Source: an uncultured Nitrososphaerota archaeon (lineage in GTDB: Archaea; Thermoproteota; Nitrososphaeria; Nitrososphaerales; CADDZS01). From it: 64,000 bases of DNA. The position numbers and the translations under genes are program-made. How positions within the stretch are numbered: the stretch's first letter is position 1; every line of letters begins with the position of its first letter. The DNA lies in NCBI GenBank assembly GCA_963799845.1, contig CAWCYI010000006.1, positions 896,001 to 960,000 of the forward strand, read 5' to 3'. Positions 3,516 to 51,226 of the stretch are shown here, in pieces. The notes under the pieces were generated by a model that was not told the DNA's origin, made no database searches, and saw only the letters and a list, made by a program, of their open reading frames with translations.

Positions 3516-3549
3516 GGTGGGGGAGGTGGGATTTGAACCCCAATTTACT
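3516..3549 (+). repeat. dispersed repeat copy; reverse complement of a tRNA 3' end joined to CAATTTACT
   Basis: reverse complement reads GGGTTCAAATCCCACCTCCCCCACC (T-arm plus acceptor strand). Confidence 0.75.
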
Positions 3550-3664
3550 GCATCTTCAACTTGAGTCAATTCTTGAATAGACCATACAGTAGCTGAAAGT
3601 GATTATCGAAAGTGAACTAACATTATACTCTTCCCGAGCCAAATGCCTAATGGTAAATAACTGA

Positions 3665-4369
3665 ATGTCTAGAGAAACAGTTGATGCCCGAGGTCCAGTT
3701 TCACCGCCCGAGAACAGAAAAGGGTACAAGGGCGTCGCAATGGAAGGATTCATTGCAAGATGGTATACGAAAACCACTCGAAACAACACTGAGCAATACA
3801 AATCTTGGGCGAAGATTGCGAGTGGTCATATTTTTGAAAATGGTCATTTCCTTGAGCTTGCCCCTGGCCCCGGATATCTATCCATAGAAATAGCGAAACT
3901 AGGAAAGTATGAAATTGTTGGGTTGGACATAAGTAAGACATTTGTGAACATTGCTAGCGAGCATGCAAGAGCTGCTAATGTCAAGATAGAATTTCGACAG
4001 GGCGATGCCGCTTACACACCATTCCCAAGCGATACTTTTGATTTTGTCATCTGCACGTCAGCGTTCAAGAATTTTCCCGAGCCCGTAAGAGTAATTGACG
4101 AAATTTTCAGAGTCTTGAAGAGGGGTGGTGAAGCTTTGATAATAGATCTGCGCAAGGATGCTTCGAAAGCTGGAATCAACGATTATGTGGACAGCTTGAA
4201 ATTGAGCAGAATCAACTCGTTCTGGACTAGGTTTACTTTCAATCATATGTTACTAAGAAGCGCCTACACGAAACTCCAATTCCAAGATTTCGCTGCCAGA
4301 TCGCTCTTTGGAACATGCAAGACTGTGGATGAAGGAATAGGTCTTGAAGTATGGTTCCAAAAACCATGA
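3665..4369 (+). CDS. class I SAM-dependent methyltransferase
   Basis: LELAPGPGY, GLDIS, QGDA, FDFVIC motifs. Confidence 0.9.
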   Translation: MSRETVDARGPVSPPENRKGYKGVAMEGFIARWYTKTTRNNTEQYKSWAKIASGHIFENGHFLELAPGPGYLSIEIAKLGKYEIVGLDISKTFVNIASEHARAANVKIEFRQGDAAYTPFPSDTFDFVICTSAFKNFPEPVRVIDEIFRVLKRGGEALIIDLRKDASKAGINDYVDSLKLSRINSFWTRFTFNHMLLRSAYTKLQFQDFAARSLFGTCKTVDEGIGLEVWFQKP

Positions 4370-4478
4370 TCAGTAAGTCAATGTCTCTTTCCTCTGGCTC
4401 CTACGTAACACGATCGCTGAGTATTTGAAGAGCGACCAACTATAACTGACAGCATCGAATCAAAAAATTGAACTGCTC

Positions 4479-4537
4479 TTTACTAGTAAATCCCGAGTGC
4501 GAGATTTGGGATTTGAACCCCAATTTACTAGTAAAAA
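4479..4537 (+). repeat. dispersed repeat, full unit with two TTTACTAGTAAA palindromes flanking a hairpin
   Basis: TTTACTAGTAAA at 4479 and 4524; AAATCCCGA/TTGGGATTT stem between them. Confidence 0.9.
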
Positions 4538-4622
4538 TAATACGAGGGAAACAAGAAATGGACTTCACGCTCCATATCGGTTAGGAAGCAAAATTCCTCC
4601 TGGTAGGGACAAGGCGTACGTT

Positions 4623-4958
4623 TCAAATTCTTGGATCTGTTTCGGTTACCGTCGAGACGTTTCTCCCGAGCTGGAATAACTTTCGGGCAATCAGGATCCA
4701 CCAGATGAACATCAAAATCGTGGCACAACCGACGAGAATTGTTGACACGATGGATGTAGCTGACACAAAGACGGAGCCGATGTAATTGATCAAAAATAAT
4801 CCATTCGCGAGGATTCCCACCCAAGCGGTTGCTGTGCCGAAGAGCTTGCCTGTGCGCATAACTGCTGCGACGATCAGTCCCGCAACCGCCACGAAAATGA
4901 ACCCTGTACTCCAAAACAAGATAAAAGGAAATAGAAAGAAAAAGAAATATTCTGTCAT
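4623..4958 (-). pseudogene. membrane protein 3' fragment (DUF4386-like)
   Basis: VMRTGKLFGTATAWVGILAN...WWILIARKLFQL; 5' end replaced by AT-rich DNA. Confidence 0.5.
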
Positions 4959-5346
4959 GATGAAAGATGGATTTGTGCATGAATTTGATTACATCGTCTT
5001 TAGTCTTGCTGAACTCAAGAAAGTAATTGAGAAAGCACCAAAAGGATCTGCGATTTTATGGAATGATACTACTCGATCGTCATTTAATAAAATTCCAGAT
5101 TTAGATCAAAGTGATTCTAAATTTCATTTTGTTCAATCAATATCATTATCTCATAATGATAAGGAAACATATCCTCAGAAATGGTGGAAGATTGAGTGAA
5201 ATCATTAATTTACCTGATCATGGAATCAAGAAATGGGCCTCTAGGCAGGGCTTGCTGGGCTTCCCAAACTTCATCGCTTTTCATCATCAATCTTTTCTAC
5301 GTAATCGTAGCGGAAGCCGATATGCTGGATTTAAATTATCGATTAT

Positions 5347-6886: not shown

Positions 6887-7040
6887 AAGCCGAGGAATCG
6901 ACTGAAAGAGGTAAATGGCATCGATATCGTATTGTTTCTTACGTATCTCATAATTTTCAGCTGACAATGAGAGAAACAAGAATTGATGTTTGGCTGGTTG
7001 AAGGAGAAATGTTTGAAGTTTTAGCTGGAGAAAAACAAAT

Positions 7041-7247
7041 ATGAAGAGAAAATGTCCTTTGATTGTAGATTGTAAAGATGCAACAGATTATCTCACCTTA
7101 CAAGGAATAGCTGAACATATTAGATTAGTTCATCCTCATGAAGCGAGAGTTGCAATTAAGAAAGCATTAATTGATGCAGAAAAAGCATGTCGAGGAGTCG
7201 TGCCCTTGTGGGCAATAGGTGGCTCAAGACATTTGGAACGTTTCTAG
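7041..7247 (+). CDS. small C2H2-like zinc-finger protein
   Basis: CPLIVDC...HIRLVH; AT-rich. Confidence 0.5.
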   Translation: MKRKCPLIVDCKDATDYLTLQGIAEHIRLVHPHEARVAIKKALIDAEKACRGVVPLWAIGGSRHLERF

Positions 7248-7248
7248 T

Positions 7249-7549: not shown

Positions 7550-7755
7550 GATGTTGGCTCATCATTGTGCACGGTGGAGGACTTGCTTTCACGAACGCGC
7601 TGTTCGCGATTCTCGACGAAATCGTTACGAAGTTGCTTGAGCGATAATTTGTCACTCTAGAATATACTAAAATGGGACTCGCACCCTTGGGCCTCATCTT
7701 TTACTAGGTGACATGATCGACCGTATTAAAGGAACGTAAAGCCACAGCCAAGCAC

Positions 7756-8732
7756 ATGTACGCAGCAATAGACTTGCACCAAAAAACTGTACAGCTAGTA
7801 CTCAAGGATGAAGGGGGAAGGATAGAAAACGAGCTGAAGATCAACAAGGATGCAAAAAGCATACTCGAATTTCTTGATGGTACTGATGCTGAAATAGTCA
7901 TGGAGTCTGGTTACAACCACGAACACATCTATGATCTTCTAAAGGAGGAAGGATACGATGTCAAGGTAGCTCATCCATTGATGGTTAAGGCGATCGCATA
8001 CGCAAAAGTGAAAAATGACAAGGTAGACGCAAGGACACTTGCAGATCTACTGAGACTGGACATGATACCGGAGTGCTACATCCCCAGCCAAGAGATAAGA
8101 GAAGTAAGAGACCTGGCAAGGAGGAGACATTATTTCGTCTCGACAAGAACGATGTTCAAAAACAAAATCCATGCAGAGCTCAGCAGGAGATGGATTGATT
8201 ACAGTAAAGATCTCTTCACGCAGACTGGGATGGACCATCTAAAATCGCTTCATATCGCAGCGGTAAATGACTACCTCGACTCAATTCAGTTCCTCGATGA
8301 GAAGATACGAGAGCTTGACGGCCAAATCAAGGAAAAGCTCTTGGCGACAAATATGCGAAGCTCCTTGTGACGGTGCCAGGAATATCCTACTACGGTGCGC
8401 TGCTGATTTCAAGCGAGATTGCAGACATCAACAGATTCCCAGACCCAGAACACCTGTGCTCCTATGCAAAACTGGCACCCGGAACTCATCAATCGGGAGA
8501 GACACAATACCAGAAAGCAGATCGTAACAAGGGCAATCACATGCTCAACTGGATATTGATCCAGTGTGCTCACATACACGTCCTAAACTGCAACTCGTCG
8601 ATTACTGGGCATTACAACAGGATCAAGGAAACGAGGGGAAACAAGATCGCCATCGTCGCAGCAGCAAGAAAACTGACGTGCGCAATCTACATGATGCTGA
8701 AGGAAGAAAGAGCCTTCAGGCTGGACGGCTAA
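7756..8732 (+). CDS. IS110 DEDD recombinase, frameshifted near 8340-8367
   Basis: AAIDLH, VMES, KNDKVDA; second frame VPGI...YAKLAPGTHQSG...AAARKL. Confidence 0.9.
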
Positions 8733-8740
8733 AACCATAA

Positions 8741-8887
8741 ACTGGGCTCGAGAATTTACTGCATCTTCAGGATGCGTTTACTAGGATGAGCCAAAGGCAA
8801 TAAGCGAAAGCCACAATGCTCTTTTGGAGCGAATGGGAGTATGCTCGTCCAGCATGACAAAAGAGATATTAAGAAATGTAGCCCAGT
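8741..8887 (+). ncRNA. predicted bridge RNA of IS110-A (right non-coding end)
   Basis: GAATTTACT (8752-60) and TTTACTAG (8777-84) flank a GCATC/GATGC hairpin, closed by GGCTC/GAGCC; donor guide ATGGGAG (8833-39); alternative outer stem ACTGGGCT/AGCCCAGT. Confidence 0.8.
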
Positions 8888-8926
8888 CGACATGGGAGTA
8901 AAATCTACTTGCGAAGAAAATCCGTG

Positions 8927-8964
8927 GCGGAATGTGGGACCCCCGCACGAATTTACTAGTAAAA
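8927..8964 (+). repeat. dispersed repeat copy
   Basis: GCGGAATGTGGGACCCCCGCACGAATTTACTAGTAAAA. Confidence 0.9.
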
Positions 8965-9130: not shown

Positions 9131-11143
9131 TCAGAGGATCTGCTGCGCCTGAGTTTGGCTGTGACCTCTGATCGCTCTATCAAAACCAATTTTGCTGAGA
9201 ACCACCAGCCACCGGGGATCCTGCCAGAGATTCTCAAATGCGAAATCGACCGCTACTGAAAATAGATATCCAGATCGTTCTTCGATCGCCCTGAAGAGCC
9301 ACTCGAACGCCCTGTCATTGTCCCCGGTATTGGCGTAGACTCCTGCAATGGCAATCGGAGATCCCTTTCCGTTTTCCCAAAGGTCTAGCAGCTTGGAAAG
9401 GATCCTGATTGCCTCCTCGTTTTTTCCAGCTTTTGAATACGCGTAGGCGAGATCATTTAGGTGGAAGGGGACGCCTTCACCAGCCAAATCAATCGCCTTC
9501 TTTATCTCGGAAATTCCTTGATCGAACTCACCGGTGCGCACGTGGCAACAGCCTAGCGCGTCGAATGCAAATGCTGAGTTAGGATCCAGATAAATGGCAT
9601 TCATCAAAAACGCCTTGGCCTCTTCGACGTGGCCATTGTAGAGATGGACGACCCCGGCGATTGTAAAGGTCTCGGCGGAAAGTGGGTCGAGATCTATTGC
9701 GCGTTTTGCTTCCCTTATCGCCTCATCGGATCTTCCGAATTGTCCTAAGAATAACGAAAACAGTGTGTGGACGTAGGAAAGACTCGGATTCAGTTGGATG
9801 GCTCGCTGGAATTCCAGTTCCGCTTCAGCGAATTTCCAATCCTGTAGATTCAACACTGTAGCAAGTGCGGCGTGGGCTTCAGCGATGGAGTCATCAATTT
9901 CCAATGCTCTTTGCGCGTAGGCTCTCGCCTTGGGGAGCACTCCTCTGGTCGGAATTATTTCCCATGCGCCTAGACCTGCGTAGCAATCGGCTATCGCGGC
10001 ATATGCCCGGGCGTAGCCCGGGTCCCTCTCTATCGCCTGCTCGAAAAGTTTGATTGCATCACCGTAAGATTTCTCCGTAACGTGGAGAGAATAAAATCGT
10101 CCGCGCAGATATAGCGAGTGCGCCTCAACACTCATCGTTCCCAAATTCTCGATTCTTTCCCTGTCCCTATCCAGAAGCTTCAGTTCAAGGGAGCTCGCGA
10201 CATGCTGGGCTATCTCGCTTTGTATCGAAAACACGTCTTCAAGTGTCCTGTCATAGACCTCAGACCAGACTTGGCGGTCGGCGGCGACGTCGATCAGCTG
10301 CACCGACGTGCGCACGCGGCTCCCTGCACGGCGAATACTGCCCTCTAAGATACTTCCTACTTTGAGTTCTTCGCCAATCTCAGTTAGGCGCTTGATTTGA
10401 CCCTTGTACCGCATCACAGATGTTCGAGATACAACGCTGAGCTGAGTAATTTTCGAAACCGAGGAAATTAGCTCCTCCGTTATCCCGTCCGCGAAGAATT
10501 CGCTTTCCGGATCAGTACTCACTTTAGCGAATGGTAGAATGGCGATTCTATTTTTATCGAGTCGGGGAGTTCCGCGTTTGCTCCAGACCGCCCTCTCCCA
10601 GGGGAGAAGGATCTTGTAGATCGTGATAGGGACATTGACATTTTTTAGCTGCGTAAACTCAAGTTGGACAATTGGAAGTCCGAGTTTGTTCCTTATCTGA
10701 TCAAAAACCTGACCTGAAATGCAGATTCCCTCAGGGTCTGCGAGAGGCTGGATCCGAGAAGTGATGTTAACAGTATCACCGAATACGTCACCCTCTCGAT
10801 GGACTACATCTCCATAGTGAATCCCTATCCGTAGTTTAGTTTTCCAAGGATCAGGAACAGACCTATTGGATTCGTGAAAGGACTTTTGAATTTCTACCGA
10901 GCACTTGCAAGCCTCCAGCACGTCTTCGAATTCGATTAGAAAAGAATCCCCGATGGTCTTGACTTCCCGCGCGTGGAATTTATGAATTAACTCTCGAACC
11001 TTTCGATTGTGCATTTCCAGAGATTCAAGAGCGCGCGATTCATCCAACTGCGTCAGCGAGGTGTATCCTACCAGATCAGTGAACATGATTGCTGAGAGGT
11101 TTCGCATATCGCAGTCGCGCCTGACAACCACTTGCTTGGCCAT
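9131..11143 (-). CDS. class III adenylate/guanylate cyclase with TolB-N-like and TPR domains
   Basis: AIMFTDLVGYT, KTIGDSF, RIGIHYGDV, GDTVNITSRI, IAILPF...DGITEELI, TPRs. Confidence 0.92.
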   Translation of the reverse strand: MAKQVVVRRDCDMRNLSAIMFTDLVGYTSLTQLDESRALESLEMHNRKVRELIHKFHAREVKTIGDSFLIEFEDVLEACKCSVEIQKSFHESNRSVPDPWKTKLRIGIHYGDVVHREGDVFGDTVNITSRIQPLADPEGICISGQVFDQIRNKLGLPIVQLEFTQLKNVNVPITIYKILLPWERAVWSKRGTPRLDKNRIAILPFAKVSTDPESEFFADGITEELISSVSKITQLSVVSRTSVMRYKGQIKRLTEIGEELKVGSILEGSIRRAGSRVRTSVQLIDVAADRQVWSEVYDRTLEDVFSIQSEIAQHVASSLELKLLDRDRERIENLGTMSVEAHSLYLRGRFYSLHVTEKSYGDAIKLFEQAIERDPGYARAYAAIADCYAGLGAWEIIPTRGVLPKARAYAQRALEIDDSIAEAHAALATVLNLQDWKFAEAELEFQRAIQLNPSLSYVHTLFSLFLGQFGRSDEAIREAKRAIDLDPLSAETFTIAGVVHLYNGHVEEAKAFLMNAIYLDPNSAFAFDALGCCHVRTGEFDQGISEIKKAIDLAGEGVPFHLNDLAYAYSKAGKNEEAIRILSKLLDLWENGKGSPIAIAGVYANTGDNDRAFEWLFRAIEERSGYLFSVAVDFAFENLWQDPRWLVVLSKIGFDRAIRGHSQTQAQQIL

Positions 11144-11200
11144 TGATGATTTTTGTAGGGAATAAATTGATTGGGGAAAAACGCTCGTCTTCTCACTCTT

Positions 11201-11311
11201 GTGGGGGCGACCCCCGCACGAATTTACTAGTAAAAATCCATCCCGGTGCGTAACTCCACAGTCGATGAGTTTAGGCTAGAAACGGGATTCGGACGCGAAT
11301 TTACTAGCAAA
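11201..11311 (+). repeat. two dispersed repeat copies
   Basis: CCCCCGCACGAATTTACTAGTAAAAA (palindrome at 11223) and GGGATTCGGACGCGAATTTACTAGCAAA (11300). Confidence 0.85.
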
Positions 11312-12572: not shown

Positions 12573-13609
12573 TTGGTGATCGATCAGACACTTCTCATTG
12601 TTGTTGGTCTCATCTTTCTCGCATTAGCATTCGATTTTGTGAACGGTTTTCATGATACTGCGAATTCCATTTCCACAGTCGTTTCAACAAGGGTACTTTC
12701 TCCCAGACTCGCAGTGTTGGTCGCGGCAACCTTCAATTTTGTCGCGTTTTTTGTGGTGGGAGCACCCGTCGCGAAATTCATAGGAGGAAGTATCATTTCT
12801 TCACCGTTGTTTGTCGGTAACCTGATTCTAGAGCTGGTATTTGCAGCGCTTATCGGAGGAATAACCTGGGACCTGATAACATGGTATCTAGGTCTTCCTT
12901 CCTCTTCTTCCCATGCGCTTATTGGCGGCTTGGTAGGTGCTGGCGTCGCTGCGGCTGGAACCAGCGTCGTAAAACTTGCTGGACTCGAAGTCGTTCTCGA
13001 ATACATGGTGCTTTCTCCCATCATCGGAATGATCGTGGCTTTTGGTATAATGATTGGACTGCTCAATCTTCTGAAAAAACTGGCTCCAGCCACCGTGAAC
13101 AAATATTTTCGTAGATTACAGATCGTTTCTTCAAGTGCAGTTTCATTCAGTCACGGATCCAATGACGCTCAGAAAACCATGGGAGTCATAACATTCCTTC
13201 TTATCGGGACAAATTACCTCTCTTCTGGCGGTAATGCGTCTACTGCTTTCCAAGTTCCAGTCTGGGTTGCTCTTGTATGTTTACAACAATTGCATTGGGC
13301 ACGTTTACAGGAGGTTGGAGAATCATAAGAACGATGGGCATGCGTATTACTCATCTCGATCCTATTCATGGCTTTGCTGCTGAGACGGCTTCAGCGGCTG
13401 TGATTCTTGGTGCGAGCTTTTCTGGGATTCCTGTCAGCACTACTCATGTTGTTTCGGGTTCGATTATGGGAGTTGGATCAACAAAGAGATTTTCGGCGGT
13501 TAGATGGGGGATAGCAAGGAGAATTGTTTGGGCGTGGATCATTACCATTCCAATGTCAGCTCTTGTAGCTGGAGGAGTCTTCATACTGACGAAATTTTTG
13601 GTGGGATAA
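12573..13609 (+). pseudogene. pit: inorganic phosphate transporter (PiT family), frameshifted near 13280
   Basis: NGFHDTANSI, PSSSSHALIGG, HGSNDAQK, PVSTTH. Confidence 0.92.
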
Positions 13610-15730: not shown

Positions 15731-15784
15731 TGTGGGTTTGGGCTTACTAGTAAATCCCGAGTGCGAAATGTGGGACCCCCGCAC
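15731..15784 (+). repeat. dispersed repeat copy
   Basis: GGGTTTGGGCTTACTAGTAAATCCCGAGTGCGAAATGTGGGACCCCCGCAC. Confidence 0.85.
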
Positions 15785-15803
15785 ATGGAAATAAGCACTC
15801 TTC

Positions 15804-23256: not shown

Positions 23257-23420
23257 TTCAGTCGTGGGTAGTTCACTTTCGCAACCGTATACTTCGCCAT
23301 TAAGCGAATCATATGCGGTCGCAAATGGAGTCGCGGTAATACTAGTTTGGTTGAGGTTTCCCGGAACGAGTTTATCATTCTGAAGTAGTAGAGTGCTGCA
23401 ATCGTCCAAGCATTAAACGA

Positions 23421-23449
23421 GGGATTCGCACTCGAATTTACTGATAAAA
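23421..23449 (+). repeat. degenerate dispersed repeat copy
   Basis: GGGATTCGCACTCGAATTTACTGATAAAA. Confidence 0.7.
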
Positions 23450-31659: not shown

Positions 31660-32889
31660 ATGACGAGAGTCGGAATAGACGCACATAAGAAGAGCTGCAC
31701 CACGCAGGTCTTCGCGGACGGAGAAGAGTCACCCATACAATCCTTCGTCTTCAAGACGAGCAGGGCAGGAGTCTCTGAGATGCTAGCAAAGATTCCGGAC
31801 AAATCTGTATTTGTCATCGAATCTAGCACAACTGGAAAGGCGGTCACGAGAATGATTTCTTCTTTCGCATCAAACCAGCACGTGATTCACATGGTTGCGC
31901 CACCAGAGAAGAAAGCATCTGTGAAAACCGATAAGAGAGACTGCGAGCGTATCGTCAAGGAGGATGCACTGGGCTACTTGAGAAGGTGCTACGTTCCCTC
32001 ACAGTACATAGAAGACATGCGCTTTCTTGTGACCCAACAGATAGAGATTGGCGCAAAGATATCGAGAGTAAAGAACCAGATCCAAGCTCTACTGGAGAGA
32101 AACATGGTCCAGAGCGAGTTCTCAGAATTCTCTGACGTGTTCAGTAACGGAGGTCTTCAAAAGCTCGGAGAGATAGAGCTTCCAAAGCAAGACAGGCTGG
32201 CTCTCGCATTGCATCTTTCGGAGCTCAAGTTCTATGCAACCCAGCATACGGAGGTTGAGACCGAGATTGCAAAGATGGCAGCCTCAGACGAAGACTGCCA
32301 GCTTCTGTTCAGTCACCCTGGCATCAATGCTTTCACCGCAGTAGCCATCAAGGCAAGAATAGGAGACGCTTCAAGGTTCCCCACAAAGAAACATCTCTGC
32401 TCGTATGCCGGAGTCGTTCCAGGTGCTGACAACAGTGGAGAGCGTGAGTCCCACCACGAACACGTAAAGCACGGCGACGTCATATTGAAGTACGCTCTAA
32501 CATGCGCAGTGAGTGGAGCCGTGAAAGCCAAGACGGATTCTGCTGTCAAAAGAGTCTACCTGAAGCACATCAAGAGGGGGAAAGCTCCTCAGGAGGCTCA
32601 GGTTGATGCTGCAAGGAAACTCGCCTGCATTGTCTGGAAGATGCTTACATTCAAGCAGAGGTACGTCGAGGAGGACAAGTATCTGACAGCGAAGAAGATG
32701 AGGCAAACATCCTTCAATGCTCAAAGAGTCATCAAAGACGCGATACTACCAGAGAGCGTTCCAGAGCTAGCCAAAAGCCTTTCATCGGACGTTAGCGTAC
32801 TGGAGCAGTACTCAACGAATCTTGATCGCATGCTTGGCCGTCACAATCGGAGAAAAAAGGAAAATAGCAGGCAGACAGGAGTGACTTGA
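31660..32889 (+). CDS. IS110 DEDD recombinase, intact
   Basis: VGIDAHK, VIES, KTDKRD, HPGI, YAGVVPGADNSG, ARKL. Confidence 0.93.
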   Translation: MTRVGIDAHKKSCTTQVFADGEESPIQSFVFKTSRAGVSEMLAKIPDKSVFVIESSTTGKAVTRMISSFASNQHVIHMVAPPEKKASVKTDKRDCERIVKEDALGYLRRCYVPSQYIEDMRFLVTQQIEIGAKISRVKNQIQALLERNMVQSEFSEFSDVFSNGGLQKLGEIELPKQDRLALALHLSELKFYATQHTEVETEIAKMAASDEDCQLLFSHPGINAFTAVAIKARIGDASRFPTKKHLCSYAGVVPGADNSGERESHHEHVKHGDVILKYALTCAVSGAVKAKTDSAVKRVYLKHIKRGKAPQEAQVDAARKLACIVWKMLTFKQRYVEEDKYLTAKKMRQTSFNAQRVIKDAILPESVPELAKSLSSDVSVLEQYSTNLDRMLGRHNRRKKENSRQTGVT

Positions 32890-32967
32890 TGATGTTTAAT
32901 ATTCCTTCTTCAATAGAAGATTTTCACGGGAGCGATTCGGACCCCTCCGGCTAAGAAATCTTTGCAA

Positions 32968-32990
32968 TTTCGCTAGTAAATTCGTGCGGA
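32968..32990 (-). repeat. dispersed repeat copy in minus orientation
   Basis: reverse complement TCCGCACGAATTTACTAGCGAAA. Confidence 0.75.
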
Positions 32991-33328
32991 AATCATCTTG
33001 CACAAGTGTTCTTCATTCCGCCAGGATCGACTTTTGCGGACTAATCAGTATCGAATCCTATCGGGACGTTGCAATTAGAGCAATTTGTATGCGATTTGAA
33101 CGAAAAACGCCTATTTTTACGGTCTCATCATAAATTCGATTCGAACACCACTCAATTCAAACCTCCATCCACCTTGTTTCCTTTCCGCAATAAGGTCCGC
33201 GTTCTGATGAGACTAGGAGCATTTGGTCAAGAATTGAAGTCGTAACGAGCAACAGACTGGTGGTCTGGAAGTGCAGACAACACTCCTAATGTAACCCCTC
33301 AGTTCTGACGCATGGTTTGAAAAAGTAT

Positions 33329-42296: not shown

Positions 42297-42312
42297 CAAT
42301 TTACTAGTAAAA
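42296..42312 (+). repeat. repeat core only
   Basis: CCAATTTACTAGTAAAA. Confidence 0.8.
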
Positions 42313-42499
42313 TGATGTCTTGTTCGACCACATTACGGACACGCCTATTGACAATATTTCTGACTTTTTTGGTCCTTTCTTACTCAACGGTATCGCAGCA
42401 GCATAATGATGCCTCCATCTTAAATAATTCGTAGTTGTGTGTCGTTCCGATCAAAAGTTGTCGACGGAAGGACAGTCAACTAAAAATTTTAAGACCCCA

Positions 42500-44185
42500 A
42501 TGAATGCCGCACAACTCCTAGTGCGATGTTTGGAAAATGAGGGTGTCAAGTACGTCTTTGGAATACCCGGTGAGGAAAATATTCACATGGTCGATGCTTT
42601 CAATGGTTCGTCCATTCGTTTTATTCTAGTTCGTCACGAGCAAGCCGCTTCTTTCATGGCTGATATTTACGGCAGACTCACGGGACATGCTGCAGTGTGC
42701 ATTGCAACGTTAGGACCTGGAGCGCTCAATCTAGTGCTCGGCACGGCAGATGCGAACACTGACAGTGTTCCGCTCGTTGCAATAAGCGCGCAGGTAGGAC
42801 TGAATCGTATCTACAAAGAATCTCACCAAAGCGTTGACTTGGTAAGCCTGTTCAAACCGCTCACAAAGTGGTCTGACCTGATCCGATCAGCAGAGGCTAT
42901 TCCAGAGATGGTGCGCAGTGCCTTCAAGCAGGCCCAGACAGAACGACCTGGAGCTGTGTATCTGTCTCTCCCTGAGGATGTCGAAGCCCTCCCAGCCCCT
43001 GAAGGATCCCACCCGCTCGAGATCAATGTCGTTCGCGACTCCTCCCCATCGGCTTCCCAAATAGAGAGAGCCGCCAAGGTTCTAGGAGGTGCAAAAAGAC
43101 CAATCGTACTGGCTGGACATGGGGCTGTCCGTGATCATGCAAGTGAAGCACTTACACGCTTCTCTGAGCGTCTTGGAATACCTGTGGCAACGACCTTTAT
43201 GGGAAAGGGCGTTTTTCCAGACAATCAGCCAAATTCTCTGGGGGCCGCAGGATTCATGCGCCATGATTACGTGAATTTTGCATTCGATCAGGCTGACGTG
43301 ATTCTATGCGTCGGCTACGATCTGCAGGAATTCGATCCCGAGAGCATCAATCCAAAAGGGGACAAAGAAATTCTTCACATACATCGTTATCCAGCGGGAG
43401 TCGACGCTCATTATCATGTCGCCGTCGGTATACAAGGCAGCATTTCAGAGTCACTTGACATTCTTTCTCAACAAGTTAGGGCAACGACTGGATTGAATAC
43501 AACAGATATCAAGATTCGCAGCCTCCTTCGTGAAGAGCTAGACAAAGGAAGAAAAGACGACTCTTATCCGGTCAAGCCCCAACGAATCGTAGCAGACATC
43601 AGAGCAGCAATGGGCGAAGAAGATATCGTACTTGTTGATACGGGGGCTATCAAGATGTGGATGGCTCGTCTTTACCCCACTTACCGGCCGAACACATGTC
43701 TTATTTCCAATGGTCTCGCAACCATGGCCTTTTCGTTCCCAGGCGCAATTAGTGCGAAGCTTGCATTCCCTGATCGTAAAGTCCTGGCGGCGTCTGGTGA
43801 CGCTGGATTCCTCATGAACTCGCAGGAACTCGAGACAGCGATACGCGAAAAAATTCCTGTTGTAGTGTTGGTATGGGAAGACAGGAGCTATGGGCTGATC
43901 AAGTGGAAAATGGATCTTGAGTTAGGCCATCATTCGCTAGTTGACTTTGGTAACCCAGACTTCGTAAAGTTAGCCGAAAGCTACGGCGCCAATGGATACG
44001 CAATAAAACGAACAGAAGATTTGCTCCCCACTCTGCAAACAGCCCTTGTGGATAACACCGTCTCCGTAATCGCTTGTCCCGTTGATTATTCAGAAAATCT
44101 GGAGCTGACTGAGACGCTGGGAAAACTGGCGCCTCACTCTCTAGACATCGAGGGTTATTGCGAAAATGCGAGAAGTGGGATTTGA
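42500..44185 (+). CDS. acetolactate synthase large subunit-like TPP enzyme
   Basis: VFGIPGEEN, RHEQ, GPGALN, GDAGFLMN. Confidence 0.92.
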   Translation: MNAAQLLVRCLENEGVKYVFGIPGEENIHMVDAFNGSSIRFILVRHEQAASFMADIYGRLTGHAAVCIATLGPGALNLVLGTADANTDSVPLVAISAQVGLNRIYKESHQSVDLVSLFKPLTKWSDLIRSAEAIPEMVRSAFKQAQTERPGAVYLSLPEDVEALPAPEGSHPLEINVVRDSSPSASQIERAAKVLGGAKRPIVLAGHGAVRDHASEALTRFSERLGIPVATTFMGKGVFPDNQPNSLGAAGFMRHDYVNFAFDQADVILCVGYDLQEFDPESINPKGDKEILHIHRYPAGVDAHYHVAVGIQGSISESLDILSQQVRATTGLNTTDIKIRSLLREELDKGRKDDSYPVKPQRIVADIRAAMGEEDIVLVDTGAIKMWMARLYPTYRPNTCLISNGLATMAFSFPGAISAKLAFPDRKVLAASGDAGFLMNSQELETAIREKIPVVVLVWEDRSYGLIKWKMDLELGHHSLVDFGNPDFVKLAESYGANGYAIKRTEDLLPTLQTALVDNTVSVIACPVDYSENLELTETLGKLAPHSLDIEGYCENARSGI

Positions 44186-44206
44186 ACCCCAATTTACTAG
44201 TAAAAA
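44168..44206 (+). repeat. dispersed repeat copy overlapping the ALS stop codon
   Basis: GCGAGAAGTGGGATTTGAACCCCAATTTACTAGTAAAAA. Confidence 0.9.
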
Positions 44207-44972: not shown

Positions 44973-46577
44973 CTACTCGGGCGGAATCTCAGAGAATATC
45001 GTCCTAAGTGTGGTACCTGCCTTGTGAGCATTGTACCTGCCCCAGGCGAGTATCAGCAGGGCGATGAGGATGATTACCCCAACCTCCGCGTATGCATCAC
45101 CGAGGCTCGCTCCGAGGTAGGTTCCGCTCACCAGGGGCGATGTCTCGGAGATGACGTATATCGCAAATCCCGCCGCTCCCACGAAGCCAGCTACCGACAT
45201 CAACCAAGCGCCCTTCATTGATCCGTAGAGTCTTTTGTAGAGGCTGGGCCTTATGATCGGAAACAGGCCAGCAGCGAGGAGTGGCATGCCGAGCCCTATG
45301 GGGATCATGGTGGATGAATTCAGGATAGATGCAATCGCACCATATTCCCAGTATACTGTCAAGTACGCCCCAGAGAGCACACCGATGAGAATCGTCGCGA
45401 CGTGCGGCGAATGGAACCTGTCGCTCACATTCGCGAAGCTCTTCGGGAGAATCCTGTCCATGGAGGCCGCAAAGACCATTCGCGAGGAGAAAATAACGAG
45501 TCCCGTTGAGTTGATCATCCATCCCAGGAACAAGCCTATTCCAACTATCGCGCCGATGGCAGGGTCTTGCAGTGACAGAAGGAAATTGGGGAAAGGATCA
45601 ACGGGGAACGCGGTAGGGTGGACCCCCGCAACGTAGGCGAGAGAATTGAGAAATTGCGTAGTGAAACTGCTATAGACGAGGAAGGTCAGGATTTCAAGCG
45701 CGACTATCGTGGTTACCCAGGACAGTATGTATGCTCTATAGATGCTCGTCTTGACGTTCCTCGTCTCCCCCGCAGCGTATGAGCTGAAGTTGAAACCGAC
45801 GTAGGTAAGGAATCCCCACGGAATAGCGGCCAGGAGTGTGTTGGGCAGGCTGAACGCGGTCGCGGAATAGCCACCTGCGGTTGTGGTGGATAACACACTC
45901 TGATATGTGGTGTTGGAGCCCACGAAGGACATCGCGCTGTTGAAGCTCGTCGCGACGTCGGGTCTTGATAGGATGCCGACGCCGATAGCGAACAAGGTCA
46001 CAACGAGAAGGTACATGGGCACACTGATTCTGCAGAAGATGGAGTACGCCCGTATCCCTAGCAGGGCAATCAGTATTATCACAATAAGCACGACGAAGGA
46101 GAGCGGAAAGCCCCAGGCGGTTGAGGCGAGGTTCGTGGCCAGGCTCGTGAGACTGGCGCTCTTGATTGCCGCTCCCACGCCAAAGAACGACGGCCCAAGC
46201 CCTATGACGAACTGGTCCCAGAGGTTAAAGACATTGTAATAGACCAGAGCACCGATGAGGAACACGACCTGAATCGTGCCATAAATCGGACCCACGATAC
46301 GCGTCGACCAAACATAGTCTCCACCGCTTCGGGACATCCCTGCGCTGAGCTTCCCGTAGACATACGCCATGCACAGCGGAGGTATCCCACCCAAGGCGAA
46401 AACGGCGTACAGATTGGCGCCCGGGAAGAAGTAGGGCGCGAAGAGGACGGTCGTTACGAATCCGTTGATGATTAGGACGATCCCCTGCGAGATGAGTAAA
46501 TGGTCTCTAAAACCGAGTTCCCGCACCAGGCCCGTGGCATCCCTGGCGAAGACCTTCGTCTGAGTTGGTTGTGCCAA
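44973..46577 (-). CDS. APC-family amino acid permease
   Basis: FARDATGLVRE, SRSGGDYVW, SRMVFAASMD, FSEIPPE; about 12 TM. Confidence 0.92.
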   Translation of the reverse strand: MAQPTQTKVFARDATGLVRELGFRDHLLISQGIVLIINGFVTTVLFAPYFFPGANLYAVFALGGIPPLCMAYVYGKLSAGMSRSGGDYVWSTRIVGPIYGTIQVVFLIGALVYYNVFNLWDQFVIGLGPSFFGVGAAIKSASLTSLATNLASTAWGFPLSFVVLIVIILIALLGIRAYSIFCRISVPMYLLVVTLFAIGVGILSRPDVATSFNSAMSFVGSNTTYQSVLSTTTAGGYSATAFSLPNTLLAAIPWGFLTYVGFNFSSYAAGETRNVKTSIYRAYILSWVTTIVALEILTFLVYSSFTTQFLNSLAYVAGVHPTAFPVDPFPNFLLSLQDPAIGAIVGIGLFLGWMINSTGLVIFSSRMVFAASMDRILPKSFANVSDRFHSPHVATILIGVLSGAYLTVYWEYGAIASILNSSTMIPIGLGMPLLAAGLFPIIRPSLYKRLYGSMKGAWLMSVAGFVGAAGFAIYVISETSPLVSGTYLGASLGDAYAEVGVIILIALLILAWGRYNAHKAGTTLRTIFSEIPPE

Positions 46578-48318: not shown

Positions 48319-48524
48319 TTATGACTTGAGTTCAATCAACAATACACGATTGAACTTGACTTAAGAGCTCGCTAGCCTGGCACCGCTGAAATTGAGTCTC
48401 AGAGTGACACTAACTGACAACTTAGAAACGAGTCCACTCGTAAGTGGAACAATGATTCTCATATCCTTGGTGATAAGGTACTTTTTGAAATAATTCCAAA
48501 GGAGGAGAATATATCGCCATCGAC

Positions 48525-48607
48525 TTCACTAGTAAAATCCACTTGCAGAATAATTCAGTGCGCGGAAAGTGGGATTTGAACTGCATTTTACTAGCGAGCC
48601 CTAACCA
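48525..48607 (+). repeat. dispersed repeat unit plus inverted-repeat arm
   Basis: TTCACTAGTAAAA...GTGGGATTTGAACTGCATTTTACTAGCGAGCCCTAACC. Confidence 0.8.
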
Positions 48608-48715
48608 CAACTTCCTCCCCCCCACTCATCCATCCGTACATACGTCCGAGCTCATCTGAGCGACAACTATCCCCTGAGCGACTGTAAGTGAGAACTCTCG
48701 GTCTTTTCTTGTTAA

Positions 48716-49321
48716 ATGAAAATAGTTTTCTTTTCGTTGGGAATGTATGGACTCGCGATGAGAATAAAAGTGGTATACGATTTCGTGTGGACTGATCGCG
48801 TTAAGAAAAATATGAAGTCAGAGCTCGATTCTATCCGCGAATGGTACGAATACAATTCGTTTGTGAGAAAGAAATACTTGCGACTTATTTTCAGCGAAAA
48901 AGTCCCCGAGGCAGAGAGGTACAGGAATAGGGGAGCTTCATATCCCTCCATTGTGGACATATTCGTTCATGTATTGGATGCTTACAGATGGTGGTTTGTC
49001 TATGTCTACAATAACCGGACGTCGGACGCGACGACGATGAGCGAGCAAAAGAAGTATACCGAGCTCGAGGTGGTCGACGACGAACGAAAGATCGACTCTT
49101 TGGTCATAGATATTGTGAGATCGATGACACCGACGGATCTGGAAAGAGTCCTCTCGGTTCATGAGGCACCTGATCAAACCTGGAGCATCAAGCTTCGGGA
49201 AATTCTCATGCACATGGTCGAGGAAGGACTACAGCACAGGGGGGAAATGAACGCGTTGCTGTGGCAGATAAACGTCGAGCCTCCTATCACTGAATTGCAA
49301 GATTATCTGAGGCAGCGCTAA
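48716..49321 (+). CDS. DinB-family protein (true start probably near 48812)
   Basis: SIVDIFVH...HMVEEGLQHRGE. Confidence 0.85.
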   Translation: MKIVFFSLGMYGLAMRIKVVYDFVWTDRVKKNMKSELDSIREWYEYNSFVRKKYLRLIFSEKVPEAERYRNRGASYPSIVDIFVHVLDAYRWWFVYVYNNRTSDATTMSEQKKYTELEVVDDERKIDSLVIDIVRSMTPTDLERVLSVHEAPDQTWSIKLREILMHMVEEGLQHRGEMNALLWQINVEPPITELQDYLRQR

Positions 49322-49380
49322 CAGATACGCGACCACAGTTTTGGAGGCTGACGGGCGAAATGCGGTGAGCTGAGCTTCAT

Positions 49381-49417
49381 GGGTTTGGGCTCGCTAGTAA
49401 ATCCCGAGTGCGAGATC
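49381..49417 (+). repeat. inverted-repeat arm plus repeat start
   Basis: GGGTTTGGGCTCGCTAGTAAATCCCGAGTGCGAGAT. Confidence 0.8.
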
Positions 49418-49563
49418 AATTCTTTGTGGGACGATCTTTAGCCATAGCCGAGAACTCCAATACTGGCTCTACGTCACAGGTTCAGTGACTTGCTAAAGAA
49501 CTATCGCTTTGACTTTTGCTGAAGCTGATTGAAAGTAATCGAAGTTTGCGTTAAGAGAATTCC

Positions 49564-50034
49564 TTGAATATCAGTATGAGTATGATCCTTACTATGAAGG
49601 AACGAGCTCGGAGAAGCAATTCTGGTTCGGCACTTCCAATAGTTCACACCAGAAATCTGGAGCAACCTCCATGGTGTTACTTGCTTTGGGGAGTACCTGC
49701 GCTTCTTGTGTTTGTCAGTTCATACGCATACGGTCACGCTTTTCTCACGGTAACTGAGGCAGGTATATTCTGGACTATCTCCGTAACATGGATTGGAATA
49801 GGGTGTTTTCTCAATGGTAGGTCTTGCGGCAGAGTCCATTGTCTGATCGATGGGATCGGATTTCCTGCGCTTGCTGTTATTGGTGCGTTTGGAGTTCTTT
49901 CAGTGCTAGCAATAAATTGGAGTCTGTTCTGGCTTGCATTCCTTGCGATCCTCGCTGCAAGTTTTGGCGCAGAGTTTGTCTGGGGAAGATATTCTACTAA
50001 GGTCTGGAATCAACATGCAGATCAAATGCGCTGA
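49564..50034 (+). CDS. four-TM membrane protein with C-x5-C-x4-C/His motif
   Basis: GCFLNGRSCGRVHC between TMs; possible metal binding. Confidence 0.6.
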   Translation: MNISMSMILTMKERARRSNSGSALPIVHTRNLEQPPWCYLLWGVPALLVFVSSYAYGHAFLTVTEAGIFWTISVTWIGIGCFLNGRSCGRVHCLIDGIGFPALAVIGAFGVLSVLAINWSLFWLAFLAILAASFGAEFVWGRYSTKVWNQHADQMR

Positions 50035-50046
50035 TTGTAACTGTCT

Positions 50047-50219
50047 TCCCACCGAGTGCGGGATGTGGGACCCCCGCACGAATTTACTAGTAAAAATGCA
50101 AACCCTCTGTAATCCTGCAAAACCAGAAGTCGGGCAGGAAACGGGATTTGTGCGCGAAGTTTACGAGCAAATCACGAGTACGTGAATGTGGGATTTGGGC
50201 ACGAATTTACTGGTAAAAA
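50047..50219 (+). repeat. cluster of three tandem repeat units
   Basis: palindrome variants at 50083, 50160 and 50206, each preceded by GGGA(T/C)...CGAA. Confidence 0.88.
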
Positions 50220-50924
50220 GTGATAGCAAAAATGTTGGGATCTTTCGGGATTCATCGAAGCGCTTATGACGATGAACATGGGGATTAGGTCCTTGTTGCT
50301 CTGCCTGCCTATATGGCTCTAGGCTTTCAACGCTTTTGTTTATTTTCTACCCTTTCGTTGAATAGGGTTTAACCATCAGAACCCCGTCCTCCAGAATTGC
50401 AGATGGCTTCCAAATTAGGCGCAGATTGCCCCTGTGGCTTCTCCTTCGCAACTCCACACGGCGAAGACGAAGCGATAGCCGTGGTACAGGAACATGTTCG
50501 GCGTATCCATTCGAAGGACTACCCCAACGGCCTCAGCAGGGACGAAGCAAAGAGCGAACTAAAGAGCAAGTAGCACAGGGGCCCACTGGCGGCAGGAGAA
50601 ATCTGTCTCATTTTCCTGTCGCGGTCCCCCTACCCCCTTTTTTTTCTCTTCAGGGCAATAATGCTCGCAACATGAAATAATGTCCTCTCGAAAATTGGCA
50701 GACCGCCGCTCAGTCAGCTTCAATTATTCCCACTCCAGAGTTTTCTCTAGGGAGCGTAATGGCCATGGTCCCACGCCTTTTTGCTCTCATCGCGTTTCTC
50801 ACAATCATGTCAAGGATTGCCCGAAGAAGTTCAATCTGAAACAATATGCAAGGGAGTCCAAGGCCCCAGCTTGAGTGTTCGGAGCCGAGATTTGATTCTT
50901 TTCAATAGCTTAGTCGCATTAGTG

Positions 50925-51226
50925 AATTCCATCTGCGGGATGGGGGGATTCGAACACGAATTTACTTGACGCGCATCAGTTGTTTGTAAAGTACCGTCGC
51001 CTAGACTGTATAGTGAAAGAAATTATCCTTTCCAATGAAGTAGTGGCGAGAGCGAAGTGCCTTATCCCTTACTAGTAAAATCAACTTTCAGAATGATCCC
51101 ACGCGCGGAATGTGGGACCCCCGCACGAATTTATTAGTAAAAATACATGTCAATTCACAGGATTTTTGAAAGATGAAACGTACAGATCAGGCGAGGTACG
51201 GGATTCGCGCACGTATTTACTAGTAA
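50925..51226 (+). repeat. cluster of four repeat units
   Basis: palindrome variants at 50961, 51069, 51130 and 51216. Confidence 0.88.

What the first reader, a model, noticed from the sequence alone, without database searches (positions are those of the whole stretch)
3516..51226. About 20 polar dispersed repeats (hairpin, tRNA T-arm-like segment, TTTA-CTAG-TAAA) marking gene-block junctions: candidate archaeal REP-like or cassette system
Seen in sequence: the consensus is about (AA)TCCC-N12-15-TGGGA(TTTGAACCCC|CCCCCGCACG)AATTTACTAGTAAAA. Palindrome copies or variants lie at 3544, 4479, 4524, 7700/8899 (split), 8952, 11223, 11300, 15744, 23437, 42300, 44193, 48526, 48587, 49394, 50083, 50160, 50206, 50961, 51069, 51130 and 51216 on +, with only 32968 clearly on -. 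They occur singly or in tandem clusters between unrelated accessory genes. The stem is kept while the sequence changes (AAATCCC/GGGATTT, TCCCAC/GTGGGA, CCATC/GATGG). Established analogues: bacterial REP/BIME (tetranucleotide plus hairpin, spread by RAYT HUH nucleases) and integron attC arrays (co-oriented, TA-rich). Both are targeted by IS110/IS1111. Inference: these are recombination or mobilisation sites of an undescribed gene-shuffling system whose enzyme lies outside this window.
Basis: partly seen in the sequence, partly recalled or inferred. Interest (0 to 1): 0.88.

Follow-up and report, generated by a model that had tools for sequence, protein, structure and literature searches.

The report
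Partial-tRNA attachment sites marking gene islands
The repeats are real and are most likely the attachment-site scars left when small mobile gene blocks inserted one after another next to tRNA genes in an uncultured soil archaeon, so they mark a gene-exchange island rather than a wholly new kind of system.

Summary
The palindrome TTTACTAGTAAA (P) occurs 14 times in the window at one mismatch or fewer, against 0.15 expected. A profile of arm plus P finds 62 copies genome-wide. They are clustered and co-oriented within arrays.

The "T-arm-like" arm is a true tRNA 3' fragment running from the T-loop to the 3' end, antisense on the window's + strand. One window copy matches the genome's tRNA-Gly(CCC) 3' end at 17 of 17 bases.

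In related genomes and named Bathyarchaeia MAGs, the same module (P, a 7-9 nt linker, the tRNA 3' end, a P-like trailer) lies downstream of a full tRNA gene. There it duplicates that tRNA's 3' end exactly for 17-30 nt. In one relative, a tyrosine integrase is encoded between the tRNA and the copy.

Best reading: these are att modules of tRNA-targeting integrative elements, stacked and decayed into an island, much like the tycheposon islands of Prochlorococcus. IS110 elements insert into P.

Several points do not fit a simple version:
- The window holds no full tRNA and no integrase.
- Fragments of different tRNAs are mixed within one array.
- Cargo-less 45-77 bp units occur.
- A second arm type (GGGTTTGGGC) is unexplained.

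Hairpin covariation is weak. REP and integron membership tests fail.

The parts
3524..3549 (+). att module. tRNA-fragment arm (GGGATTTGAACCCCAA type) plus P cut after TTTACT.
   Evidence: nhmmer core hit C6:899524-899549; sequence read.
4479..4535 (+). Complete 57-bp unit of type A: P, 33 nt, P.
7690..7707 (+). Left half of a P site (TTTACTAG) interrupted by an IS110 insertion.
   Evidence: TTTACTAG|GTGACATG
7708..8898 (+). IS110-family element inserted into P. Its transposase is frameshifted (ORFs 7756-8370 and 8367-8732).
   Evidence: Pfam DEDD_Tnp_IS110 3.2e-19 and Transposase_20 8.4e-18; ends read.
8899..8963 (+). Remainder of the split 62-bp type-B unit: TAAAATC..., arm, P.
11209..11311 (+). 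Arm+P, followed by a 77-bp type-C unit ending in a second arm+P.
15734..15784 (+). Hybrid site. Second arm type GGGTTTGGGC (Y), then P, then a type-A unit cut after CCCCCGCAC.
23419..23448 (+). Degenerate arm+P (GGGATTCGCACTCGAA TTTACTGATAAA).
31660..32889 (+). Second IS110-family transposase gene (409 aa), of another subfamily, abutting a reversed copy.
   Evidence: Pfam Transposase_20 2.7e-16 and DEDD_Tnp_IS110 6.7e-09.
32966..32994 (-). The only reverse-oriented copy in the window. It is cut within P, next to the IS110.
   Evidence: C6:928973-928994, -
42300..42311 (.). Solitary exact P without a recognisable arm, just before the TPP-enzyme gene.
44173..44205 (+). Arm+P overlapping the last codons of the TPP-enzyme gene (42437-44185).
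48525..48598 (+). Type-B unit whose right P is cut after TTTACTAG.
48599..49393 (+). DinB-family gene block. It is bracketed by inverted Y-type ends (CGAGCCCTAACC ... GGGTTTGGGCTCG) and a duplicated CTAG.
49394..49416 (+). Left part of a type-A unit (CTAGTAAATCCCGAGTGCGAGAT), cut off on its right.
50054..50217 (+). Arm+P, then a type-C unit, then a type-A-like unit in tandem, with no cargo between them.
50920..50966 (+). Unit with a GGGGATTCGAACACGAA arm and P cut after TTTACT.
51068..51227 (+). Type-B unit followed by a type-C unit. On the - strand the last arm reads CGAATCCCGTACCTCGC, identical (17/17) to the 3' end of the genome's tRNA-Gly(CCC).

Best explanation
Each copy is an attachment-site (att) module of a family of integrative elements that target the 3' ends of tRNA genes. 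The elements are widespread in this archaeal lineage, probably Bathyarchaeia.

Read on the window's - strand (the tRNA sense), a module has four parts in order:
- palindrome P2 (TTTACTAGTAAA);
- a 7-9 nt linker (TTSGTGC..);
- a copy of the last ~19-25 nt of a tRNA, from the T-loop to the 3' end;
- a short trailer and a second P-like palindrome (P1).

An element integrates by site-specific recombination within the tRNA's T-loop region, presumably using a tyrosine integrase. It supplies a new tRNA 3' end and pushes the old one to its far side. Repeated integration stacks gene blocks separated by these modules, all in the tRNA's orientation. That stacking produces the polarity.

With time the integrases and the anchoring tRNA context are lost and cargo is deleted. 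This leaves an island of accessory genes punctuated by partial-tRNA modules, some of them empty. IS110 elements use the palindrome as their insertion target.

Shown directly: the tRNA identity of the arm, the tRNA-proximal architecture in relatives, the polarity, and the IS110 insertions. Inferred: the enzyme, where the crossover falls (T-loop or P), and how the arrays in this window were built.
For: 1. Identity to tRNA 3' ends.
- The window copy at 51130-51227 has 17/17 identity to the 3' end of tRNA-Gly(CCC) at C7:113855-113947.
- Type-A arms share 14-15 nt with the T-arm of several tRNAs.

2. Architecture next to tRNA genes.
- Seven loci outside this genome have a predicted tRNA within the fetched stretch. 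In 7 of 7 the module is in the tRNA's sense, and in 6 of 7 it lies downstream of the tRNA's 3' end.
- The module duplicates that same tRNA's 3' end, starting in the T-loop: 30 nt in L093, 20 nt in L094, 20 nt in L085 and 17 nt in L074. The weaker cases are L091 (11 nt), L087 (6) and L104 (5).

3. An integrase in one relative. In G011 (same family) the 7.1-kb block between tRNA-Leu and the displaced fragment is bounded by P on both sides. It encodes a tyrosine integrase (PF00589, 91.5 bits).

4. A classical island in this genome. On C3, tRNA-Leu(TAG) and a 27/29 direct repeat of its 3' end flank an 11.3-kb island, and a P+T-arm module follows 1.3 kb further on. Cores at C6:373956-374077 lie downstream of, and in the sense of, the tRNA at C6:376385-376551.

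5. Polarity within arrays.

6. Conservation. The core model hits 10 of 12 family genomes and 26 of 151 order genomes, G000 included. An exact 23-base pattern finds 21 stretches in species genomes, 14 of them titled Bathyarchaeota or Bathyarchaeia.

7. A published analogue. The tycheposon preprint (bioRxiv 10.1101/2020.12.28.424599; passages read) describes islands with partial tRNAs between and beyond stacked elements.
Against: - No full-length tRNA lies at either end of the window's array. ARAGORN found none, and Rfam found nothing at the gathering or E-value thresholds.
- None of the genome's predicted tRNAs is followed by an exact P.
- Fragments of at least two or three different tRNA types are mixed within one array. 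Simple serial integration at one tRNA does not predict this.
- No integrase lies in the window. The whole genome (87% complete) has only 3 weak PF00589 hits, none inside an array.
- Two family genomes that have arrays (G004, G007) gave no PF00589 hit at all.
- Many blocks are 0.7-2 kb, and some units (45-77 bp) carry no cargo.
- The source tRNA of the commonest arm (..TCCCACATTCCGCAC) was not found among the predicted tRNAs.
- The Y arms (GGGTTTGGGC) and the intact Y-P-Y palindromes in other families are not explained.
- One G000 copy near tRNA-Glu (C6:539790) is in the opposite sense.
- There is no evidence of current mobility.
Confidence: 0.6

Rival explanations
1. An integron-like or satellite cassette system. 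The P-T-P modules are active recombination sites of small integrase-less cassettes that a recombinase encoded elsewhere moves in trans. Modules recombine with one another, at P or as folded hairpins, independently of any tRNA gene.
For: - The blocks are single-gene sized and carry no integrase.
- Arms from different tRNAs are mixed in one array, and the arrays lie away from tRNA genes.
- Hybrid sites look like products of recombination between an X-P-A site and a Y-P-Y site. Examples are Y-P-A at 15734 and 49381, X-P-Y' at 48587 and at C7:11986. The C7 array is bracketed by outward-facing Y and Y'.
- Intact Y-P-Y palindromes exist in other families.
- P2 and P1 can pair (12 bp, RNAalifold), with 2 both-side changes.
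- A small tyrosine-recombinase frame lies 38 nt from a Y-P site.
Against: - Covariation is weak.
- Genes lie on both strands.
- No recombinase recurs beside the arrays.
- No closely related DinB cassette is flanked by P elsewhere. None of the 80 metagenome loci holds the exact 10-mer, and the 79%-identical homologue has no P or Y.
- No excision junction was seen. The three joints are paralogous copies.
Confidence: 0.2
2. MITE-like or transposon insertions. Short non-autonomous elements and the DinB block have GTAA.../...TTAC termini. A DDE transposase (IS630/Tc1-like) inserts them into TA or CTAG, and each insertion recreates the target, so the units pile up in tandem.
For: - P can be read as TTTAC-TA-GTAAA, that is end, TA duplication, end.
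- The DinB block has 12-13-nt inverted ends and a duplicated CTAG.
- An IS630-like element with TA duplications is active in the genome, with 18 near-identical copies.
Against: - The IS630 ends (ACCTGGCCGACATAA) are unrelated to the unit ends.
- The flank outside the supposed duplication is conserved (TTAC, not only C), even where the further flank is unique.
- The model does not explain the exact duplication of the neighbouring tRNA's 3' end, or the tRNA-sense polarity.
Confidence: 0.1
3. REP/BIME-like elements spread by a RAYT-type HUH nuclease, or functional intergenic signals (terminator, promoter or small RNA) kept by selection.
For: - The copies are intergenic. Of 13 window sites with a neighbouring ORF, 11 follow the 3' end of a co-oriented ORF (read).
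- A hairpin is possible.
- The family is conserved across an order.
Against: - There are two Y1 genes only. Both lie in IS605 copies with TnpB, and their ends are unrelated to the repeat.
- The copies are co-oriented rather than in inverted pairs.
- The hairpin is only weakly enriched.
- No Rfam family matches.
- No RNA run was available, so expression was not tested.
Confidence: 0.05

Closest known systems
Tycheposon islands of Prochlorococcus (bioRxiv 10.1101/2020.12.28.424599; abstract and passages read)
   Same: Cargo-carrying elements integrate at tRNA genes. Stacked elements are separated by a partial tRNA. Further partial tRNAs and degraded elements are scattered through the islands of flexible genes, and growth is directional from the tRNA.
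   Different: This case is archaeal. Every partial tRNA is joined to a conserved palindrome and linker. One array mixes fragments of different tRNAs. The window has no full tRNA or integrase at the array end. Many units are cargo-less. Mobility is not shown.
Integrated elements of archaea at tRNA genes, with short att repeats and tandem arrays (Krupovic et al. 2019, PMC6563490; passages read)
   Same: Integration uses tyrosine recombinases at tRNA genes. Direct repeats equal to the tRNA 3' part flank the element. Re-use of one site gives arrays.
   Different: That survey concerns Thaumarchaeota, elements of several kb or more, and a few per genome. The passages I read mention no conserved palindromic arm and no array of ~20 junctions. 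Its supplementary att table could not be opened.
Integron attC cassette arrays (recalled; search listing only of PMC4889954)
   Same: Co-oriented recombination sites lie between small, mostly single-gene accessory blocks. The sites are imperfect palindromes of 57-140 bp. IS1111/IS110 elements are known to target attC (recalled).
   Different: There is no intI/attI, no RYYYAAC/GTTRRRY boxes, the genes lie on both strands, structural covariation is weak, and the site contains a tRNA fragment.
REP/BIME with RAYT (recalled)
   Same: Short intergenic hairpin-capable repeats at gene ends. IS110-family elements target them.
   Different: No RAYT is present. The copies are co-oriented arrays rather than inverted pairs. 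There are ~60 rather than hundreds of copies. The arm derives from a tRNA.
pdif modules of Acinetobacter plasmids (recalled)
   Same: Discrete gene modules are bounded by short palindrome-like recombination sites, with no recombinase in the module.
   Different: pdif sites are Xer sites in alternating orientation on plasmids. Here the sites are co-oriented, chromosomal and tRNA-derived, and a Xer link is untested.

Membership tests
tRNA-targeting integrative elements (att duplication) | A direct repeat identical to the 3' part of a tRNA gene flanks the inserted DNA. | tested here: met
   L093 30 nt, L094 20 nt, L085 20 nt, L074 17 nt. G000 C3 27/29. A window copy matches tRNA-Gly at 17/17, but that gene is on another contig.
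tRNA-targeting integrative elements (att duplication) | [quoted passage not shown] | tested here: not met
   No tRNA in the window. The feature is met in relatives and on G000 C3 and at C6:376 kb.
tRNA-targeting integrative elements (att duplication) | An integrase is encoded by the element. | tested here: inconclusive
   Present in G011 (PF00589, 91.5 bits). Absent from the window and from the C3 island.
tRNA-targeting integrative elements (att duplication) | Excision or circular forms, or strain-level presence/absence ending at att. | not testable with these tools
   The Logan contigs are short and break at the repeats. No relative is above 80% DNA identity.
Integron | An intI tyrosine recombinase with an adjacent attI at the array start. 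| tested here: not met
   PF00589 gives 3 weak hits in the genome, none in or beside an array.
Integron | attC with R''/R' boxes (RYYYAAC...GTTRRRY) and a conserved folded structure. | tested here: not met
   The boxes are TTTACTAGTAAA. Covariation is weak.
Integron | Cassette ORFs co-oriented with the array. | tested here: not met
   ORFs lie on both strands between sites, e.g. 9131-11143(-), 15804-17822(-) and 44973-46577(-).
REP/BIME-RAYT | A RAYT (Y1 HUH) gene associated with, or flanked by, the repeats. | tested here: not met
   Two PF01797 hits, both in IS605 copies next to TnpB, with ends unrelated to the repeat.
MITE of a resident transposon | Terminal inverted repeats shared with an autonomous element. 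| tested here: not met
   The IS630-like ends are ACCTGGCCGACATAA. No element with GTAAAT... ends was found.
IS110-family insertion into the repeat (sub-claim) | DEDD and Transposase_20 domains, and insertion at a fixed point of a specific target. | tested here: met
   Domains. Junction TTTACTAG|IS|TAAA at 7707/8899. The same junction occurs in the opposite orientation at C6:962578.

The most novel reading that the evidence does not exclude
The P-linker-tRNA-end-P modules are not mere scars. They would be the working recombination sites of an archaeal cassette system: small integrase-less gene cassettes, moved in trans by a recombinase encoded elsewhere, recombine with any other module or with Y-P-Y palindromes, possibly as folded hairpins. 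This would build integron-like arrays that are no longer tied to a tRNA gene.
Probability: 0.2. Interest if true: 0.8.

Novelty: new variant of a known kind. Interest (0 to 1): 0.5.

Why it matters
Bathyarchaeia are abundant and uncultured, and how they exchange genes is poorly known. If this reading holds, the ~40-nt module (palindrome, linker, tRNA end) is a simple sequence marker. It delimits flexible-gene islands and their cargo in MAGs, and it explains why such regions break short-read assemblies. It also gives a handle for finding the responsible integrase by co-occurrence.

The module offers a defined integration site as well, which could be tried as a genetic tool for archaea. The IS110 copies that target the palindrome add natural examples of IS110 elements homing to a repeated host sequence in archaea.

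Tried and rejected
- Replication-strand polarity: GC skew around the clusters is near zero and does not track orientation.
- IS605 as the source: the two complete IS605 copies have unrelated ends.
- IS630 as the mobiliser: its ends are unrelated.
- A gene shared by the two places where arrays converge: only IS110 is shared.
- The G011 integrase has no tblastn hit at E<=1e-3 in G000 or in any other fetched locus.
- The paralogues of the small G000 recombinase are not next to P.
- The IS110 copy beside that recombinase shows no P at its ends.
- Reads: three soil-metagenome runs of one study, held only as short Logan contigs that break at the repeats.
  - The three listed joints are other genomic copies. 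The 49416->50072 joint with GGAGA equals the copy at C4:1971722-1971767.
  - The letters at the 50106->51198 joint equal the C7:22186 unit.
  - So there is no evidence for or against excision.
- Synteny: no family genome matches the window above 80% identity outside IS and a multi-copy TPR gene.
- DinB cassette mobility:
  - In 11 family loci, 2 had a P-like 12-mer at <=2 mismatches and 0 had a Y arm.
  - None of the 80 metagenome loci holds the exact 10-mer.
  - The closest homologue (79% identity) has neither P nor Y.
- Viral contigs: 3 exact pattern hits, all inside ORFs and unrelated.
- Rfam: no match at the gathering threshold or at E<=5 and E<=10.
- My early guess that the organism is an ammonia-oxidising thaumarchaeon was wrong. 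No amoA was found, and the named genomes that carry the module are mostly Bathyarchaeia. The SSU match does not decide the domain by itself, because the control genomes all ring.
- Literature: searches, with passages of PMC6563490, PMC10848311 and PMC11697101. None of these showed a description of this repeat. Supplementary att tables were closed, and this is not proof that the repeat is unpublished.

Full report
**The observation**

- The 12-bp perfect palindrome P (TTTACTAGTAAA) has 14 matches at one mismatch or fewer in the window. The shuffles gave a mean of 0.15, and 0 of 100 reached 14.
- The whole assembly is 4.60 Mb in 9 contigs, 47% GC and 87% complete. It holds 40 exact copies: 20 on C4, 16 on C6, 4 on C7. 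Seven of them are in the window.
- The copies form units in which two palindromes lie 45, 62 or 77 bp apart. I call these types A, B and C.
- In the window's + orientation every unit ends with a conserved ~18-nt arm followed by P. The arm is one of GGGACCCCCGCACGAA, GGGATTTGAACCCCAA or ACGGGATTCGCGCACGWA.
- A profile of arm+P finds 62 copies genome-wide at E<=0.01. Thirteen are in the window, 12 on + and 1 on -.
- With a 30-kb linkage rule, the six groups of three or more copies are either uniform in orientation (5/5, 5/5, 3/3, 6/6) or show one switch (++++---- and ++++++-++++++----).

So the repeat family, its clustering and its polarity are real.

**The surroundings**

- The window is an accessory, IS-rich region. 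Between the copies lie genes for a methyltransferase, a phosphoesterase, cyclase-TPR proteins, PhoU/PHO4, Nramp, a TPP enzyme, a permease, an enolase-superfamily enzyme, a DinB-family protein and small unknown proteins. They are on both strands.
- Five kinds of insertion sequence are present in the stretch from 15.7 to 42 kb: TnpB, IS4/5-like, IS630-like, IS110 and IS3-like.
- Pfam found no tyrosine or serine recombinase in any of the 60 window ORFs scanned.
- Genome-wide, PF00589 gives 3 weak hits, none in an array. PF00239 gives none.

**IS110 elements target the palindrome**

- One IS110 element (7708-8898, transposase frameshifted) splits a unit exactly at TTTACTAG|...|TAAA.
- The same junction occurs in the inverted orientation at C6:962578.
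- A second IS110 subfamily (31660-32889) abuts the only reversed copy in the window.
- IS110 copies are the only sequence shared by the two places where oppositely oriented arrays meet.

**What the arm is**

On the - strand the arm reads as the 3' part of a tRNA.
- The last unit of the window (51130-51227) carries CGAATCCCGTACCTCGC. That is identical (17/17) to the stretch from the T-loop to the last acceptor base of the genome's tRNA-Gly(CCC).
- Type-A arms share 14-15 nt (GGGTTCAAATCCCAC) with the T-arm of several tRNAs.

The decisive context comes from other genomes.
- A sequence-only model of the core hits 10 of 12 genomes of the same family and 26 of 151 of the order, G000 included.
- An exact 23-base pattern finds 21 stretches among species-representative genomes. 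Fourteen are titled Bathyarchaeota or Bathyarchaeia. From this I infer, without proof, that the window's organism belongs to that class.
- In six of those stretches, and in one family genome (G011), a full tRNA gene lies within the fetched DNA.
  - In 7 of 7 the module is in the tRNA's sense.
  - In 6 of 7 it lies 1-7 kb downstream of the tRNA's 3' end.
  - In four it is an exact duplicate of that very tRNA's 3' end, starting in the T-loop: 30 nt in L093 (which includes 11 nt of P-like trailer), 20 nt in L094, 20 nt in L085 and 17 nt in L074.
  - The other three share only 11, 6 and 5 nt.
- Left of the duplicated part there is always the same sequence: P followed by TTSGTGC...
- In G011 the DNA between tRNA-Leu and the displaced fragment is 7.1 kb and bounded by P at both ends. 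It encodes a tyrosine integrase (PF00589, 91.5 bits).
- In the window's own genome, contig C3 has a classical island.
  - tRNA-Leu(TAG) and a 27/29 repeat of its 3' end lie 11.3 kb apart.
  - The DNA between them holds BrxL, DUF790 with an XPB-like helicase, and transport genes, but no integrase.
  - A CorA gene and a P+T-arm module follow.

**Mechanism proposed**

The module P2-linker-(tRNA positions ~58-76)-P1 is the attachment site of a family of integrative elements.
- Integration into a tRNA gene replaces the tRNA's 3' end with the element's copy and displaces the old end to the far side of the element.
- The next integration repeats this. Gene blocks therefore become separated by modules that all point the way the tRNA does.
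- This accounts for the tRNA fragment, the two palindromes per unit (one from each neighbouring element end), the polarity, the unrelated cargo on both strands and the truncated copies.
- It matches what the tycheposon study describes for Prochlorococcus islands: elements stacked next to a tRNA, separated only by a partial tRNA, with further partial tRNAs scattered through the islands (passages read).
- It also matches the remark in the thaumarchaeal survey that elements using tyrosine recombinases form arrays by re-using one site (passages read).

The enzyme, the exact crossover point and the history of this particular array are inferred, not shown.

**What does not fit**

- The window array has no full tRNA at its tRNA-sense start, which lies beyond 51227.
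- None of the roughly 30 predicted tRNAs of the genome is followed by an exact P.
- Arms of Gly type and of one or two other types are mixed in one array.
- Several units follow each other with no cargo (50054-50217, 51068-51227).
- Two family genomes with arrays gave no PF00589 hit. They are 87-88% complete.
- There is a second arm type, Y (GGGTTTGGGC next to P).
  - The DinB gene (48716-49321) is bracketed by inverted Y ends and a duplicated CTAG.
  - The whole C7 array is bracketed by outward-facing Y arms.
  - Hybrid Y-P-A and X-P-Y sites exist.
  - Intact Y-P-Y palindromes (GGGCTTACTAGTAAGCCC) occur in other families of the order, exact in 2 genomes. At <=2 mismatches they occur in 12 of 401 genomes, against 2 genomes for the reversed control. 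None is intact in G000.

These facts are what one would expect if modules also recombine with each other at P. That is my most novel surviving reading, an integron-like system of trans-mobilised cassettes. The evidence for it is indirect.
- Pairing of the two palindromes and of the linker with the tRNA end is possible.
- Covariation is weak, with 39 of 500 shuffles reaching the observed count of pairs changed on both sides.
- A hairpin of >=6 bp is found in 16% of 97 distinct copies against 7% of 2425 controls.

**Rivals**

- The transposon reading (ends GTAA.../...TTAC with a TA or CTAG duplication) fits the local anatomy. It does not fit the exact duplication of the neighbouring tRNA's end. 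The resident IS630 (18 copies) has unrelated ends.
- The REP/RAYT reading fails. The only Y1 genes belong to IS605 copies with unrelated ends.
- No Rfam family matches.
- Expression could not be tested.

**Mobility today is untested**

- The available runs are short contigs that break at the repeats, and their apparent joints are other genomic copies.
- Relatives are too distant for synteny.
- Homologues of the DinB cargo elsewhere are not flanked by P.

**Verdict**

Its best explanation is a known kind of process, integration at tRNA genes building an island with partial tRNAs. The variant is new in three respects:
- the lineage;
- a palindrome-plus-linker arm conserved across an order;
- dense arrays of small or empty units that IS110 elements target.

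Confidence in that reading is 0.6. The bolder cassette-system reading keeps about 0.2.

Noticed in passing
whole genome (G000): ARAGORN finds 9 tRNA genes without its intron option and 35 with it. Nearly every predicted tRNA carries an intron, some at unusual positions, and a few long-'intron' calls are probably false.
   Followed up: partly
window 55849-56976 and 25224-26355; 18 copies genome-wide: An IS630-like element of ~1.13 kb is present in 18 near-identical copies (99.8-100% identity). It has ACCTGGCCGACATAA inverted ends and TA duplications, so it looks recently active.
   Followed up: yes
G000 C3:18004-30776 (locus L078): An 11.3-kb island sits at tRNA-Leu(TAG), flanked by a 27/29 repeat of the tRNA 3' end. 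It carries BrxL (a BREX Lon-like protease), DUF790 with an XPB-like helicase, an aldo-keto reductase and FTR1, but no integrase.
   Followed up: partly
loci L065, L069, L070, L068 (genomes G042, G107, G115, G021): Other families of the order carry intact palindromes GGGCTTACTAGTAAGCCC flanked by (GGGTTT)n/(CCCAAA)n-like runs, several per genome. In L069 two of them lie 944 bp apart. Their role is unknown.
   Followed up: partly
G000 C6:376385-376551 (locus L079 4386-4552): The predicted intron of a Leu/Ser-type tRNA contains two P-like sequences (CTTACTAGTGAG and ACTAGTAATT). Something related to the repeat may have inserted into the intron.
   Followed up: no
G000 C4:1955493-1956788: A 432-aa ORF interrupts the IS110 copy at the point where two arrays converge. 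From its sequence alone I recall it as looking like a group II intron reverse transcriptase. It was not scanned.
   Followed up: no
window 12573-13609, 39913-41873, 7756-8732: Three genes are split into two overlapping ORFs each: PHO4, cyclase+TPR (fused at 9131-11143) and the IS110 transposase. These are either real frameshifts or indel errors of a long-read assembly.
   Followed up: no
window 20796-22232; G000 C6:727-731 kb and C4:748-753 kb: A TnpB-only element lies in the window. Two complete IS605 copies (Y1 TnpA + TnpB, 93% identical over 2.8 kb) lie elsewhere. There are 15 TnpB-type hits genome-wide.
   Followed up: partly
loci L085, L086, L088, L093, L094, L098-L100, L104: In other Bathyarchaeia, P is followed after ~20-25 nt (AAAAATRTGC...) by a second tRNA 3' fragment in the opposite direction (e.g. 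GAGAGTTCGAATCTCTCCCGGGCTACCA). P therefore lies between two diverging partial tRNAs, and some encode CCA.
   Followed up: partly
G000 C4:2115510-2116151 (locus L001 7511-8152, - strand): A 213-codon open frame has tyrosine-recombinase motifs (PF00589, 36.6 bits) but no ATG/GTG/TTG start giving >=100 aa. It lies 38 nt from a Y-P site, with an IS110 copy at its 5' side. Paralogous fragments are on C2, C3 and at C4:2053459.
   Followed up: partly
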